Of a stretch of 64,000 nt of DNA, positions 6,001 through 12,000 are shown in pieces; positions within the stretch are counted from its first letter, which is position 1; each line of letters begins with the position of its first letter. Position numbers: made by a program. This DNA comes from Diadema antillarum (Eukaryota), in the NCBI RefSeq assembly GCF_040938485.1, contig NW_027271522.1, positions 744,001 through 808,000 of the forward strand. The letters are read 5' to 3'.

Positions 6001-9000
6001 CTACACCTTAGCATAACTGCACCCTGAACTCCAACAGTTATTGTTGTTAGTGGTTATACAGCACAAAGTGGTTAGCCCTACCAATATAGGAGATACAGTT
6101 TGTATAGATGATGAAGAAAAAAAGAAATACCTAGAGTACTATGTGTTGTTTATATAGGCTCTACTAAATATTATAACGAACTTTCAGTAAATCTTGAAAT
6201 CCAAGTACAAAGATTCATCCTTTCCTGAGGGAAATTACATAGTCTAGACTATGACCTACAAATTATACTCTACACAATTTTAAAGTTATGTCTATTTCCT
6301 AACGATGTTCTGTGAAGTAAGTATCATTTAAAATGGGGTATTCTTGTTTTGGATGAAAATAATATTCTTGAATTTAGAATTTGTATATGTCTGGTTTGTG
6401 ATATTAAACTGCTAAAAAGACAATTTTCCTTTAGGCCTATGAATTTTCAATTGCAAACTAAGGAGTTCAAATGAAAACTTCATTCGTCATCTTGTGTACA
6501 TTACCTTTCTGCATATAATTTTGCTGGACCCCAAATTTTCTGATTTTCTCAAATCAGCCTCTTTTGATCCTATTTTTTCTATATTCATCAGATTCTGTCT
6601 AAATGCCATACAAAACCTGTTGCTGCGGATGTGCAAGATCGAAGCTCTAAGGTATGTATCTACTAGATCTGTCGTACTGACCTAGATTAGTGAAACCATT
6701 TAGAAGTCACATAACTTTCTATTTTGGGTATAGTTTTGCATGGATGCAAGCTAATGCGTGAAAATGATATTCTTGAATTTGCAATTGATATACAAGTACG
6801 TCTGGTACTTGCTAACATGCCAATACTCATTAGTGCTTATTCTTGACCACAACCTTGCACCTCATTACTGTGTATCAAACATGTTGTAATTGAGAAACAG
6901 AGATTACGTGGTTACTGCGTGCACACATATGGTTCTGCTGAGACCTTGGCAGTTTTTCTCTCTAAAAAATCATGAAAGTGGCAAGTCAGGCATTATTTAG
7001 TGAAAATATGCTAAAATGTCTTTTTATATTCCTATTTTCTTAATATTGTACTACAAATGTGACATCACAAACTATAGAAGCCTTCATTGTCATCTGGCAA
7101 TGACTGAGCAGAAACTTAAAAAGAAAACCAAAATTTTTCACGTAGGACGGTGATTTATTCATGATGCTGAAAACAAAATGAAAAGCTGAAATTAGAAAAA
7201 AATAATAATCCAAATGGAAATTATGGAAAACCATTATACACAAGAAAGCACATAATATATGGTCAAATACTCTGGAGTCTCTGCATGACTATGTCTTTCC
7301 CCATCATGGGCCGATTCCATCTATGATGAAGAAACAAAAAAAACAAAACAAACAAAACAGAAAAAAGCCACGAAACCACTTGCTAGCTGGCAGGCAGACG
7401 TCTCTTTCAAAATTTGTTGGTGTAAACAAATGAAAAACAATGATAGTACTTTGGTGTAGATCTAGACAGATACATGTACTTGACAATCAACCACGGCAGC
7501 AAGGCCTGACTTGGGGGGGGGGGGGGGAGGGGGGGGGGGGTGATGATTAGACACCAGTTCATCCTGTAGCTGGAGCCAGTACAATCGTGACAATCTCAAA
7601 GCTAAGGTTTCTTGTACACGGTCTAGTCAATGCTCAGCAAAACTGCGTGTTTACTTCTCAAAATTCGACACTAAAATATGGGCCGTATGCAATGATAAAC
7701 ATGAGTTTCTTTGGTGATTTGTTTTATTTCCATTCATTTTTCCAATGTCATACAAAATAGTTAGATCGATCTAAAAGGAATGTGTTTTTTTTCTATAGAT
7801 CTACATATGAAGAGTTTGTTTGCAGTAACAGATACATCCATAGTTGCCAAATGGAGATATTTGTAATTAAATGTGAGAAAAAATAGAATCATATAAGAAA
7901 ATTTTTGCTTCTTGCGACCTAACTTTAAAAATGTACCTTCATATTTCATGACCAATACAGGGCAAAGTCCATGAAGATGTCCCATCAGATGCTAAAATTC
8001 ATTTTGATTTAATTAAAAGAATATTGTTATCATGTTGTAATTAACGAGTTAATTTTCATATTTTCAACATAGAAAATATTGAATTATGCAAATTTATGAA
8101 CGAAACACTGCCTTAATTTGCATAAATCAAAAACAGTTCTTCGTTTGGAACAAATGAAAAATTATCATCTAAAATGAGCTGAATTGATCTTCACGTAGTT
8201 CCTTTATTGACGAGACCCCTGTATGACTACTTATAAAATAGTATAATATCTATTGGTAAGACAAGATCATCAGCTTCATTATGCAAATTACAGGTGCACT
8301 CCCGATATAACGAACACGGTTATAACGAAATTTTGTTATAACGAAGTAAATCTTCTGGTCCCAAAATTATCACCGTTAAAGTCTATGGTAAGAAATTCGC
8401 TTATATAACGAACACGGTTATAGCGAAATTTCCATTATAAAGAAGTCTTTTCCGAGCGCACAGACAAAGAAAAACAAAAGAAATGTGCTCCGTTATAACG
8501 AAATGCGAATTGCTTTCGAAATTTCGTAGCGGAACAAGCATTTATAGCGTCCTCTGCATGGGTGAACGCTTCACGCCACTGTGTGTTCGCTCTTTGTGTC
8601 ACGCACAGTTTATTATTACGTTTATTATTGTGATACAGCTATTCCATCACATTTCACATAGCTTTCCAGTGTATGATGAGTAATCAGCAAACAGAATATG
8701 ATACAAATGCATGGTTTTCTTGTTTTCGTTATATTGTATTTGTTCGGTTATAACGAAATTTCGTTATAACGAAAGAAAATTGCCTGGTCCCGAGCATTTC
8801 GTTATAACGGGAGTGCACTGTATATGAATTACCCGGAGCGAAGCGTCCAATGCATATGGATTGTGTGTATGTTCTTCAAAAGTTTATTTATGAAGATTTC
8901 TAGCATTGACAAATCTTAATGCATGAAAGAAACCAAACTAAGAAAATAATTGCAAATTGGTGATTCTTTTATTTGTCTTGATTGAAGATTAATTTTCAGG

Positions 9001-12000
9001 TACCTTGTTCGGGGAAAGTACCCACTGCAAGTCTATCATTTTCTACATGTTGTAGTACAATCTGTGGAACTGAACATGACACTGTAGAGACATTTAAAAT
9101 CATTCCATAAATACTCTTCTGCATTAAAGACAAATTAGCCTGCATTATCATTTATTTCACATCTGGTTTATCCCCTATTCATCAGATTCTGAGTGCATGT
9201 CATGACAACCCAGATGCTGGGGATGTGCAAGATCGAAGCTCCAAGGTAAGTATCACTATAGATCTGTTGTATTATCTTGGAGCCATGTCATTTACAATTT
9301 CTCATAACTTAATTACCTCCGCCAAGGAAGGAGGTTATGTATTCGTTAACCGTTGGTTTGTGTGTTCGTTTGTTACTTAGTTTGTCCGTGTGCAAAATAC
9401 TCAAAAAGTAGTGAACGGATTGGGATGAAACTTGCAGGAAGAGTTGAGAATGACACAAGTAACAAACGATTAACTCTCGGTTAATGATCCGAGAACTTTG
9501 GGGGAATTTATGAAGGATTTTTGATGTTTTGGCAGTTAGGGGTCAATGAAACTTCGGAGTTCGCCAGGCTGCGCATATTGAGGTTTGCCTGCGCGCACTA
9601 AAGTGCATGCTCTAGTTTATGCTGGGGCGAGGTGCGCCATGCAGCTGAAGGCTTATGACGTAACAAAGGCTTCTATATTTGGAAATCTGGCTACTATTAG
9701 CACCGATGTGGTGTGTACCTATGACATCTCTATGAAGAACAAGATCAGTGAAGTGGTGGAAATAAGCTTCATGCTTGGCGGAGATCTGCGCTCTCAGAGT
9801 GCTTTTCTAGATGCTATCTGCATAATTCCTGCTTTTGTGGGAATGAAAGCTAATGTATGAAAATAATATTTATGAATTTCAATGTTGTATGTGTGGGGTT
9901 TGAAATATCAAGCCTATATTGCTAACATGCCAATCCTTGTTAGTTTGTGTCTCATATGTGTTTTGACCACAACCATGTACTTCATTACTGTTTACTGTAT
10001 GGTGGTGTATTTGAGAAAAAGAGAGTGTGATAAATGCATGCCCGCATACATGTGATTCTGCAGAGACATTGACAGTTTAGCCGTGTACAAAGCTTCTGAA
10101 AGAACAATGAAGTTATCCAGTAATTCTTGTTTTAATGCAAGAACATTGAAAATAGTCAATTTTTAAATATTTTCCTTAGTATCGTTTCATGCATGTGACA
10201 TCACAAGCTGTAGTAGTCTTGATATCCGGTATCAGTCTGAGTAGATACTTCCAAAATTTTAACTATTGCTCATGTCCTATTTTCCTCCATCTTTCAGTGA
10301 TGTGTTTATACTAATATTGCTGCTTGTATGTATTTATATGAATTAAGGCCGCCTTGTCATTTAACGTCTTGGAATGAATGATAATAATTTCCCAAACAAA
10401 CCAATCCAAGAAATATGGTACAGATTAAAATTCACTTGTTCAACAATAATCACATTACATACAATGCTACGTATAATGTGAACCTCATGTTGAAAGTGCT
10501 ACACACAGTTTGAAGAAAAAAATCAATTGAATTATATGATTGAATTCCATTCATGGTTAAACTTGATTTCAACACATGGTGATTCTTTTACAGTAGGCTA
10601 CAGTGCGCTGTACATCGTCTAGGATTGTATGTGATCTACGTGGTACTCTAGTTGACATTCAGTGCAGATCATAAGATCGGTGGATTTGAATTTACAATAT
10701 ATCATTCAGAAAAAATGCTGATCTTGCCTATGGCTGTCTGTCAATCACTTGATCACAAACCTACATAGGATATAATATTAACAGTCATGTATTCTTTCCT
10801 TATTCCTGTGCCCCAGAAATAGGCAAAGGAAACCAATTAGAAACTTTGAATTTTAAGGATTTAACATTTAATTTTGTACTTCATGCTTACAACTTTTTGA
10901 TATATTTTTCAATGTAAGGATATTAAATATGTCAAAATACATCGTTTATCGTTGAAAAAACAAGGATAAATGTGGAATAAAGTTTTTGAAAATTACACCT
11001 TTTTCATGAATTTTATTCTTATGAATCACCTGCCATCTGTCAAAACATGTAAAAAATTAAATGGCACTTGCAGATTTTTCATTTCACAAAATATGTTTTG
11101 GTATGTACCTGTCTGGGTTTGGACTGAGATTAATTCCAAACTTTATTTGTCCTCGCTGGTGTACATTATCATACTTCATACATTCTTGTAGGACCCAAAA
11201 CTTCCAGATTTTTTCTCACATCCACCTCTTCTGCTCTTATTTTTCTCTATTCAGCATATTCTTTCTGCATGCCATGCAAACCCTGATGCTCAGGATGTGC
11301 AAGATCGAAGCTATAAGGTATGTATTTACCAACTAGCTCTGTCGCCGGCTTAGTTAAGTGTAACCATTTTAAATTTCACAAAATTTTCATCTTTAGGTCT
11401 GGTTTTGCATGGATTCAAGCTAATGTTGGATATGATATTATTGAATTTCATTTGGTAATGGTTTATGTCGTGTTTAGAATATCAATTTGGTAATGATGCC
11501 AATGTTATTTAGTGCCTATACATGTTACGTATATTGCACACAACCAGACACTTCATATACATTATGGTATATCGTTAATGTTTTAAGAAACAGATAGAAA
11601 GTTACTGCCTACATACATGTGGTTATGCAGAGACATTGGCATTTGTTTTTTCCTCTACAAAGCGTGTCATGACAGAGTTGGGGTTATGACAGTATTGATT
11701 ATGTACTGCCTTTTATCAAAAAAACATCTAGTAGCATTCCTTTGTCACAGCCAAAAAGTTTGGGACGAACATCTTCGGACATCTTGACTTTTGAGCGAGT
11801 GCTACATGTAGCTGGCTGGTATTGACCCACAAAGGTACGTGAATAATGCTGTTAGTTTTCGACCCATTTTGTAAAACAAGTGATGCACAGGATTATTTCG
11901 TGGCGTTAGTGAAGGTGCGGCTCACTCTCATGTCGCACCATTGTCAATACTCTCGAGCGCGCCGCACCTTCACTAACACACTCTATCCTGTGCATCATTT

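What the first reader, a model, noticed from the sequence alone, without database searches (positions are those of the whole stretch)
6592..11317. Triplicated 20-aa mini-exons in the transposase linker ending in a degenerate HCF-1-binding-like motif
Three phase-0 cassette-like exons (6592-6651, 9186-9245, 11255-11317) were duplicated with their introns. All kept splice sites and open frames although the flanking introns diverged and gained insertions, which hints at selection. Their core VQDRSS/VQDRSY resembles IQDHQY in the next exon and the [D/E]HxY motif used by THAP proteins to bind HCF-1. Symmetric cassette exons would allow alternative splicing to tune THAP-to-catalytic-core spacing or cofactor binding. 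Exon shuffling of this kind inside a transposase is unusual.
Basis: partly seen in the sequence, partly recalled or inferred. Interest (0 to 1): 0.65.

Follow-up and report, generated by a model that had tools for sequence, protein, structure and literature searches.

The report
Triplicated mini-exon in a transposase gene
A 60-base exon-like segment in the first intron of a THAP/Mutator-type transposase gene was copied twice by local duplication; all three copies still look splice-ready, but they are not cofactor-binding motifs, and the real motif sits in the next exon.

Summary
Three paralogous modules, each carrying a 60/60/63-nt phase-0 exon-like segment, lie at 6592-6651, 9186-9245 and 11255-11317. 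They sit in the 10.7-kb first intron of a THAP + Mutator-like (MULE, Pfam PF20700) transposase gene, not a P-element type. These are the only AG..GT pairs of that splice-site strength in the intron. They have no indels and evolve at about half the intron rate. A neutral model rarely keeps frame and splice sites in all three copies. The constraint lies in the last 28 nt plus the donor; the first 12 codons drift like intron. The HCF-1-motif reading fails: all three copies lack the required His, and similarity to the IQDHQY region is at chance level. The true [D/E]HxY motif (DHQY, 12617-12628) is in the next exon, at a position shared by 60 of 108 homologues. Best reading: an old tandem exon duplication gave up to three in-frame cassette exons that lengthen the spacer after the THAP domain. 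Inclusion in mRNA could not be tested, and no close relatives exist in the searched databases. This is an ordinary mechanism in an unusual host gene. The family-wide motif is the more interesting by-product.

The parts
1355..1717 (+). Exon 1: start codon plus THAP zinc-finger domain (121 codons), donor GAG|GTAGGC, ends in phase 0
   Evidence: Pfam THAP E 1.9e-16. Sequence. 43% identical to the N-terminus of homologue P0059 over residues 1-131.
1718..12451 (+). Intron 1 (10.7 kb), holding the three modules and several repeat insertions
   Evidence: Homologue P0023 carries a 23-residue insert (V...Q) at the equivalent point relative to P0049. I infer a retained phase-0 intron, so the intron position looks old in the family.
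6351..6440 (+). Intron-only fragment of a fourth module (it matches the stretch ~100-200 nt downstream of the mini-exons); no exon copy goes with it
   Evidence: nhmmer E 2.5e-10; repeat family D2.
6452..7099 (+). Module M1 (flanking intron homology around mini-exon 1)
6592..6651 (+). Mini-exon 1, 60 nt, phase 0-0, ILSKCHTKPVAADVQDRSSK; invariant 19-nt block at 6628-6646
9054..10240 (+). Module M2, split by a repeat insertion (about 9274-9813; 9310-9810 is related to 47985-49996 on the minus strand)
9186..9245 (+). Mini-exon 2, 60 nt, phase 0-0, ILSACHDNPDAGDVQDRSSK; invariant block at 9222-9240; donor AAG|GTAAGT (9 of 9 consensus positions)
11116..11695 (+). Module M3
11255..11317 (+). Mini-exon 3, 63 nt, phase 0-0, HILSACHANPDAQDVQDRSYK. 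The ancestral acceptor AG is lost (CAG to CAT) and an AG exactly 3 nt upstream replaces it, keeping the frame. Invariant block at 11294-11312.
12452..12811 (+). Linker exon (120 codons, phase 0-0). It carries the family motifs CC and DVGIQ and the canonical [D/E]HxY motif DHQY at 12617-12628.
   Evidence: P0099 E 2.2e-4 with CC..DVGIQ..DHxY aligned.
13744..15315 (+). Core exon: Mutator-like (MULE) transposase domain through the stop codon
   Evidence: Pfam PF20700 E 8.6e-12 and MULE E 9.8e-5. 510 homologues, best 49% identity. The window protein carries the family residue in every column that is invariant across the 11 homologues aligned with it. Acceptor read.

Best explanation
Two or more rounds of local tandem duplication inside intron 1 of an intron-bearing THAP + Mutator-like transposase gene copied a ~0.5-1 kb piece of intron together with one 60-nt symmetric (phase 0-0) exon. 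All three copies have been kept splice-competent and in frame. They most likely are, or were until recently, real exons. Each adds 20-21 residues of polar spacer (conserved pattern ILSxCHxxPxAxDVQDRSxK) between the THAP DNA-binding domain and the linker exon that carries the family's HCF-1-type motif (DHQY). Every copy is symmetric and nothing found here enforces mutual exclusion, so any subset (0-3) gives an in-frame product with 0-61 extra residues. Shown: the paralogy, the splice-signal quality, the lack of indels, the reduced substitution rate and the frame compatibility. Inferred: that they are spliced into mRNA, and that their role is spacer length rather than a binding motif. The strongest constraint lies on the last 28 nt plus the donor and includes synonymous positions. 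Part of the constraint is therefore probably on RNA-level splicing signals (5' splice-site context, exonic enhancer) rather than on the peptide.
For: (1) Paralogy.
(2) In the 10.7-kb intron, the only AG..GT pairs 30-150 nt apart with a pyrimidine tract of at least 13 of 17 and a donor of at least 8 of 9 are these three (3 of 3 found, any frame). Their donors (8-9 of 9) beat those of exon 1 and the linker exon (6 of 9 each).
(3) The exon has 44 of 60 three-way invariant columns and no gaps. The aligned intron has 141 of 261 ungapped columns invariant and 70 of 331 columns gapped. Fisher p = 0.0087. The best of 202 intronic 60-column windows reaches 41. The longest invariant run is 20 nt in the exon against 9 nt in the intron.
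(4) In a neutral simulation at intron-like divergence, all three copies keep an open frame plus AG and GT in 3.5% of runs (1.7-6.9% over the branch lengths tried). 0 of 268 intronic 64-column windows are gap-free, and 24 of 268 keep lengths congruent modulo 3.
(5) M3 lost the ancestral AG but has a new AG exactly 3 nt upstream, so the frame is kept.
(6) In 3 of 3 THAP-bearing homologues, the spacer from the end of the THAP exon to the DxGxQ motif is 44-66 residues. Here it is 10 residues without the mini-exons and 30-71 with one to three of them.
Against: No transcript evidence of any kind was available. No homologue has a counterpart of the mini-exon peptide: local blastp-short against 120 homologues gave only E of about 1 or worse, and tblastn of 99 homologue N-termini gave nothing credible. 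pN/pS among the copies is not consistently below 1 (0.21/0.26, 0.17/0.07, 0.14/0.35), and codons 1-12 diverge about as fast as intron, so the peptide as a whole is not clearly under purifying selection. The frozen 3' block could also reflect short-tract gene conversion. The statistics rest on three related sequences and on MAFFT alignments of gap-rich intron. The spacer comparison has n = 3.
Confidence: 0.55

Rival explanations
1. Neutral relics. One real or fortuitous exon-like segment was copied with its intron by segmental duplication. The copies are not spliced, or no longer spliced, and their intact look is residual luck or gene conversion.
For: pN/pS is not consistently below 1, and the 5' 32 nt are no more conserved than intron (20 of 32 invariant against 141 of 261; p = 0.45). 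There is no homologous peptide in any relative. The locus is duplication-prone anyway: degenerate tandem copies of a core fragment lie right after the stop codon at 15343-16272, and a module fragment without an exon lies at 6351-6440.
Against: Joint retention of frame, AG and GT in all three copies is rare under the neutral simulation (3.5%). The absence of indels is rarer still (0 of 268 intronic windows gap-free). The acceptor shift in M3 preserves the frame. These are the only strong splice-site pairs in the intron.
Confidence: 0.28
2. RNA-level regulatory elements rather than coding cassettes. The strong 5' splice sites with the invariant 19-20-nt block act as decoy or stepwise splice sites, or as enhancer/silencer platforms, that control removal of the long first intron and so control transposase output.
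For: Conservation is concentrated in the last 28 nt (24 of 28 invariant; p = 0.0011) plus the donor, and it includes synonymous positions: pS is 0-0.21 in codons 13-20 against 0.11-0.43 in codons 1-12. The donors are closer to consensus than those of the flanking constitutive exons. The + strand TGCATG motif clusters over the modules, 11 sites in 6737-11411. The Rbfox reading of that motif is recalled, not tested.
Against: An RNA element would not need an open frame, a length that is a multiple of three, or the frame-preserving 3-nt acceptor shift in M3. The TGCATG cluster is matched by a cluster of 10 on the minus strand elsewhere in the window. RNAalifold gives only a weak consensus fold (-8.15 kcal/mol; 2 of 21 pairs with compensatory change).
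Confidence: 0.12
3. One reading: the mini-exons are degenerate HCF-1-binding motifs, related to IQDHQY in the next exon, that tune cofactor binding.
For: A shared Q-D at the same offset, and a Tyr in M3 (DRSY against DHQY). M3 against the linker exon gives the best local score at that site, with 94 of 2000 shuffles at least as high.
Against: His is absent in 3 of 3 copies (codon CGA, two changes from CAY). Tyr is present in 1 of 3 and is derived under parsimony. The other two copies align elsewhere at chance level (265 and 1191 of 2000), and DNA similarity is none (700, 653 and 963 of 1000 shuffles at least as high). [quoted passage not shown] The canonical motif already exists in the next exon at the family-typical position.
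Confidence: 0.03
4. A mutually exclusive exon cluster of the docking-site/selector type: exactly one of the three is chosen per transcript.
For: The copies are adjacent, homologous and of the same length and phase. Passages of PMC6071210 tie this pattern to mutually exclusive splicing after tandem exon duplication.
Against: A duplex scan of 1353 24-nt windows from the rest of the intron against the three modules gave the same energy distribution as 400 shuffled windows (observed minimum -21.5 and 1st percentile -18.9; control -21.4 and -19.2 kcal/mol). The partners were not at homologous positions. The exon length is a multiple of three and the introns are long, so neither frame nor steric hindrance enforces exclusivity.
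Confidence: 0.1

Closest known systems
Tandem exon duplication giving homologous, same-length, same-phase neighbouring exons (cassette or mutually exclusive clusters, e.g. Dscam, 14-3-3zeta and Mhc as named in PMC6071210)
   Same: Adjacent paralogous exons were copied with their flanking intron. Length and phase are the same, splice sites are kept, and the exon is more conserved than the intron.
   Different: The host is a transposase gene and the exons are very short (20 aa). No docking or selector complementarity was found, and the splicing pattern is unknown.
HCF-1-binding motif (HBM, D/E-H-x-Y) of THAP proteins, including the P-element-related THAP9 (HBM at residues 123-126 per passages of PMC10824691)
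   Same: The gene has an N-terminal THAP domain followed by a linker with a canonical DHQY (12617-12628). 60 of 108 homologues carry [DE]HxY at the same relative place.
   Different: The mini-exons themselves do not carry the motif (DRSS, DRSS, DRSY). The catalytic core here is Mutator-like, not P-element/THAP9-like. HCF-1 binding is untested.
Metazoan Mutator-like transposases (Pfam PF20700 / MULE PF10551), abundant in marine invertebrates; named hits come from Strongylocentrotus purpuratus, Holothuria leucospilota, Ptychodera flava and Oculina patagonica
   Same: The core exon aligns over 86-94% of its length at 37-49% identity and carries the family residue in every column that is invariant across the 11 homologues aligned.
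   Different: No relative closer than 49% was found. The first intron is 10.7 kb and holds the triplicated mini-exon, which no relative shows. No terminal inverted repeats bracket the gene within the window.
Drosophila P-element transposase (THAP domain; output controlled by tissue-specific splicing of its third intron). Recalled knowledge, not from a call.
   Same: A THAP-bearing transposase whose product could be modulated by host splicing.
   Different: The catalytic family is different. The P-element case is intron retention that yields a truncated repressor, whereas here the candidates are in-frame cassette exons.

Membership tests
THAP-domain proteins | N-terminal C2CH THAP zinc finger (Pfam PF05485) | tested here: met
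   E 1.9e-16, 61 bits against a cut-off of 23.9, profile positions 1-87 of 87.
Mutator-like (MULE) transposases | Mutator-like transposase core (Pfam PF20700; MULE PF10551) | tested here: met
   PF20700: 45.1 bits against a cut-off of 26.5, E 8.6e-12. PF10551: 23.2 bits, below its cut-off of 27.6. 510 homologues at E <= 1e-3. The window protein carries the family residue in every column that is invariant across the 11 homologues aligned.
Mutator-like (MULE) transposable element (as a mobile unit) | Terminal inverted repeats and target-site duplication bracketing the gene; multiple copies in the genome | tested here: inconclusive
   No inverted-repeat pair brackets 1355-15315, but only 1354 nt lie upstream in the window. 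There is no second copy of any exon in the window. Genome-wide copy number is not testable here.
P-element / THAP9-type transposases | P-element-type catalytic domain after the THAP domain | tested here: not met
   The Pfam scan of the core exon returned only the Mutator and MULE families.
HCF-1-binding motif (HBM) | The mini-exons carry D/E-H-x-Y | tested here: not met
   DRSS, DRSS and DRSY; His is absent in 3 of 3. Consensus from passages of PMC13631171 and PMC10824691.
HCF-1-binding motif (HBM) | The linker exon carries D/E-H-x-Y at a conserved position | tested here: met
   DHQY lies at 12617-12628, 105 residues before the core start by arithmetic on exon coordinates. 60 of 108 homologues have the motif 64-163 residues before the core. 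Motif density is 61 hits per 17,976 N-terminal residues against 13 per 57,606 core residues.
HCF-1-binding motif (HBM) | Physical binding to the HCF-1 Kelch domain | not testable with these tools
   No eukaryotic HCF-1 sequence is available to the complex predictor. Passages of the review note that a canonical motif does not always predict binding.
Tandemly duplicated exon cluster | Adjacent exons of like length and phase with sequence homology that extends into the flanking introns | tested here: met
   Lengths 60, 60 and 63 nt, all phase 0-0. Exon identity is 78-85% and intron identity 64-70%.
Cassette / alternative exon | Observed inclusion and skipping in transcripts | not testable with these tools
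   No transcript data. No annotated protein of this locus or of a close relative was found.
Mutually exclusive exon cluster (docking/selector type) | One docking site complementary to a selector in each module | tested here: not met
   The duplex scan is indistinguishable from the shuffled control, and the partners are not homologous.

The most novel reading that the evidence does not exclude
A lineage of Mutator-like transposases spread across marine invertebrates carries a conserved HCF-1-binding motif in its linker, so these elements or their domesticated descendants would recruit the host cell-cycle co-regulator HCF-1 as THAP transcription factors do. In this gene, three duplicated, independently includable cassette exons would let host splicing set the distance (10 to 71 residues) between the THAP DNA-binding domain and that cofactor-docking linker, giving up to eight isoforms of one transposase. 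Four searches of the held paper library returned no paper describing an HCF-1 motif in Mutator-like transposases. For those hits I saw only listings and abstracts, plus passages of PMC13631171, PMC10824691 and PMC1702500.
Probability: 0.15. Interest if true: 0.6.

Novelty: new member of a known kind. Interest (0 to 1): 0.32.

Why it matters
If the mini-exons are spliced in, this would be a clear case of tandem exon duplication, and possibly alternative splicing, acting on the linker of a transposase or transposase-derived gene. That would be a small addition to how hosts and elements modulate transposase architecture. It also corrects the annotation: the catalytic core is Mutator-like, and the functional-looking HCF-1 motif lies in the next exon. 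The broader point worth following is that [D/E]HxY is positionally conserved across this whole transposase family, including members predicted without a THAP domain. That makes HCF-1 recruitment by a DNA transposon family a directly testable idea.

Tried and rejected
- **Mini-exon as a paralogue of the HBM region or of the 5' end of the linker exon.** Local protein alignments were at chance level (265, 1191 and 94 of 2000 shuffles at least as high), and DNA alignments showed nothing.
- **Mini-exon as a counterpart of the segment that follows the THAP exon in relatives (TL[DE]xLLxPS[TS]SG).** A small profile of 5 homologue segments was run against all forward-frame peptides of intron 1. The mini-exons were not in the top 12. 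The best hit (8754-8804, E 0.049) lies inside a sub-repeat-rich, transposon-like stretch and stops at once, so I judged it chance.
- **Homologue counterparts.** blastp-short against 120 homologues and tblastn of 99 N-termini gave nothing credible. The best tblastn hit (P0079, E 0.015 per query) reads through both splice sites.
- **Close relatives that would show exon usage or copy number.**
  - Core exon search: best hit 49% identity.
  - Linker exon against 1.84 billion representatives: 1 hit, a low-complexity repeat protein.
  - THAP exon against longer proteins: 34 candidates, none significant, and this is weak evidence by the tool's own note.
- **Docking/selector pairing.** Not found.
- **Known RNA families.** 0 Rfam matches in the window.
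- **Conserved RNA fold around the exon.** Weak.
- **Alternative +1-frame ORFs across M1 (6443-6685) and M3 (11061-11336).** They are a translated pyrimidine tract and are interrupted by indels between copies, so I rejected them.
- **Terminal inverted repeats around the gene.** None found.
- **Tandem Repeats Finder on 15200-16500.** Found nothing, although blast and tblastn show degenerate repeats there.
- **TGCATG clustering.** Kept only as a weak lead.
- **DVQD as a caspase-type DxxD site.** This occurred to me from memory only; I did not test it and do not claim it.

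
Full report
**What the window is.** The 64-kb window has no N, 38% G+C and a CpG observed/expected ratio of 0.74. Its genes resemble those of marine invertebrates. The transposase core's named relatives come from a sea urchin, a sea cucumber, an acorn worm and a coral. The minus strand from 28.4 to 53.1 kb holds scavenger-receptor cysteine-rich (SRCR) exons (Pfam E 1e-20 to 1e-28). Statements about full-length spacing are arithmetic on exon coordinates.

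**The gene.** There are three main exons on the + strand.
- Exon 1 (1355-1717) encodes a THAP zinc finger (Pfam E 1.9e-16) and ends in phase 0 at GAG|GTAGGC.
- The linker exon (12452-12811; 120 codons, phase 0-0) matches no Pfam family.
- The last exon (13744-15315; acceptor read) is a Mutator-like/MULE transposase core (PF20700, E 8.6e-12).

The core has 510 homologues, the best at 49% identity. It carries the family residue in every column that is invariant across the 11 homologues aligned with it. The transposase is therefore a THAP + MULE fusion, not a P-element type. No inverted repeats bracket the gene within the window, so I cannot say whether it is a mobile copy or a domesticated gene.

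**The observation.** They translate to ILSKCHTKPVAADVQDRSSK, ILSACHDNPDAGDVQDRSSK and HILSACHANPDAQDVQDRSYK.
- Homology extends into the flanking intron: M1 6452-7099, M2 9054-9273 plus 9814-10240, and M3 11116-11695.
- blastn E-values run from 1e-59 to 1e-15.
- M2 is split by a ~0.5-kb repeat that has a relative at 47985-49996 on the minus strand.
- Profile searches find no fourth exon copy. They do find one intron-only fragment just upstream of M1 (6351-6440, E 2.5e-10), so the duplications had different breakpoints.
- Uncorrected intron identity is 64-70%, and M1 and M3 are the closest pair. The duplications are therefore old.

**Are they exon-like beyond chance?** Yes, on four counts.
- *Splice signals.* In the whole 10.7-kb intron, the only AG..GT pairs 30-150 nt apart with a pyrimidine tract of at least 13 of 17 and a donor matching at least 8 of 9 consensus positions are these three, whatever the frame (3 of 3). 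Their donors are better than those of the flanking exons (6 of 9 each). The consensus I used (MAG|GTRAGT) is textbook knowledge, not a model trained on this species.
- *Conservation.* The exon has 44 of 60 three-way invariant columns and no gap. The aligned intron has 141 of 261 ungapped columns invariant and 70 of 331 columns gapped (Fisher p = 0.0087). No intronic 60-column window (202 tried) exceeds 41. The longest invariant run is 20 nt in the exon against 9 nt in the intron.
- *Neutral model.* A simulation at intron-like divergence keeps frame, AG and GT in all three copies in 3.5% of runs (1.7-6.9%). 0 of 268 intronic 64-column windows are gap-free.
- *Acceptor shift.* M3 lost the ancestral AG (CAG to CAT) but has an AG exactly three bases upstream, which adds one codon and keeps the frame.

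**What is conserved.** The constraint is uneven.
- The last 28 nt have 24 of 28 invariant columns (p = 0.0011). A 19-nt block is exact in all three copies and occurs nowhere else in the window.
- The first 32 nt are no better conserved than intron (20 of 32, p = 0.45).
- Pairwise pN/pS values are 0.21/0.26, 0.17/0.07 and 0.14/0.35. Codons 13-20 are nearly frozen at synonymous sites as well.

This pattern fits selection for a working 5' splice-site region, and perhaps for the DVQDRSxK peptide, better than selection on the whole 20-residue peptide. Short-tract gene conversion is not excluded.

**The HCF-1 motif claim.** The consensus is D/E-H-x-Y. In the AlphaFold model described in the passages I read, the His and Tyr make the key contacts. 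[quoted passage not shown]
- The mini-exons read DRSS, DRSS and DRSY. His is absent from all three, and Tyr is present only in M3. With TCT, TCC and TAT at that codon, the Tyr is most parsimoniously derived.
- Peptide similarity to the next exon is at chance level (265, 1191 and 94 of 2000 shuffles at least as high), and DNA similarity is nil.
- By contrast, the DHQY in the linker exon (12617-12628) is canonical and sits 105 residues before the core.
- Among 120 homologues, 108 have at least 60 residues before the core, and 60 of these carry [DE]HxY 64-163 residues upstream of it. The local contexts are widely diverged. Motif density is 61 hits in 17,976 N-terminal residues against 13 in 57,606 core residues. 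The other 48 lack an exact match; for example, P0059 has GHDY.

**What the mini-exons would do.** They lie between the THAP exon and the linker exon. In the three homologues that carry a THAP domain, 44, 61 and 66 residues separate the end of the THAP-exon equivalent from the conserved DxGxQ motif. The 61 becomes about 38 if a 23-residue V...Q insert in P0023 is a retained intron, which I infer from its comparison with P0049. In this gene the distance is 10 residues without the mini-exons, 30-31 with one, 50-51 with two and 71 with all three. Inclusion would thus restore a family-typical spacer. This is suggestive only (n = 3). Any subset is in frame, and I found no mechanism that enforces choosing one. 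A docking/selector duplex scan of 1353 windows matched its shuffled control, and the consensus fold around the exon is weak.

**What stayed unchecked.**
- I had no transcripts and no other copies of the element. Exons 1 and the linker match only themselves in the window.
- The closest protein relative is 49% identical. The linker exon has no relative among 1.84 billion representatives apart from a spurious repeat protein. A search for longer proteins with the THAP exon found nothing, which the tool itself calls weak evidence.
- Supplementary files of papers were closed. I do not think they bear on the claims.

**Literature.** Four searches found no paper that describes an HCF-1 motif in Mutator-like transposases. 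The hits were a THAP review, two THAP9 papers and unrelated work. Of these I read passages of PMC13631171, PMC10824691 and PMC1702500; the rest I saw only as listings and abstracts.

**Verdict.** The triplication is real, and the copies are better preserved as splice-competent, in-frame exons than neutrality predicts. The most likely reading is an old tandem exon duplication that produced optional or constitutive spacer exons (confidence about 0.55). The main rival is unspliced relics (about 0.28). The HCF-1-like interpretation of the mini-exons is not supported. As a phenomenon it is a new example of a known kind. The family-wide HBM in a MULE transposase lineage is the more interesting lead.

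Noticed in passing
window 12617-12628 and homologues P0005-P0117: A canonical [D/E]HxY (HCF-1-binding-type) motif sits at a conserved distance (64-163 residues) upstream of the Mutator-like core in 60 of 108 homologues that have an N-terminal extension. Many of these have no predicted THAP domain. Four library searches returned no paper describing this.
   Followed up: partly
window 15343-16272: Directly after the transposase stop codon lie about four to five degenerate tandem copies (8 tblastn pieces, 39-61% identity) of a segment matching core residues ~373-453. blastn self-matches are 73-77% identical. Tandem Repeats Finder did not report them. This is a second sign that the locus is prone to local duplication.
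   Followed up: partly
homologue P0023 residues ~115-137 compared with P0049: A 23-residue insert that begins with V and ends with Q, right after the THAP-exon equivalent, looks like a retained 69-nt phase-0 intron. It suggests that the intron position after the THAP exon is shared across the family.
   Followed up: no
window 6737-11411, + strand: Eleven TGCATG sites cluster over the mini-exon modules. They include homologous sites about 86-94 nt downstream of the M1 and M3 donors, and none lie in 1718-6591. Uniform-placement P = 0.0027, but a cluster of 10 exists on the minus strand from 19496. The motif's link to Rbfox splicing factors is recalled, not tested.
   Followed up: partly
window 12232-12417: A short repeat with a 25-nt palindromic start has a relative at 56631-56815 on the minus strand (83% identity). 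It ends 35 nt upstream of the linker exon's acceptor, whose pyrimidine tract is weak (10 of 17).
   Followed up: no
window 30-420, 28023-28336, 39898-40213: A palindromic (foldback, MITE-like) repeat family. One copy lies about 0.9 kb upstream of the transposase start codon.
   Followed up: no
window 8300-8830: A sub-repeat-rich element (GTTATAACGAA units, with inverted arms 8319-8351 and 8738-8770) lies between M1 and M2. It contains a chance-level look-alike of the relatives' ENLLAPSTS motif at 8754-8804.
   Followed up: partly
window 28440-53132, minus strand: A multi-exon SRCR-domain gene or genes (Pfam SRCR E 6e-20 to 1e-28 for 4 of 4 ORFs tested). It has an internal segmental duplication: 28446-29747 is related to 51568-53135 at 79-86% identity.
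   Followed up: partly
window 26144-26578 (minus) and 63437-63805 (plus): One ORF has a weak match to the P2X7 intracellular domain (E 7e-6). A reverse-transcriptase fragment (RVT_1, E 5e-6, below the Pfam cut-off) lies near the window end.
   Followed up: no
window 50446-51334 and 54038-54817: A large near-perfect palindrome (892 nt, 87% identity) and a tandem array with a period of about 150 nt (81-84% identity between copies), both in the SRCR region.
   Followed up: no
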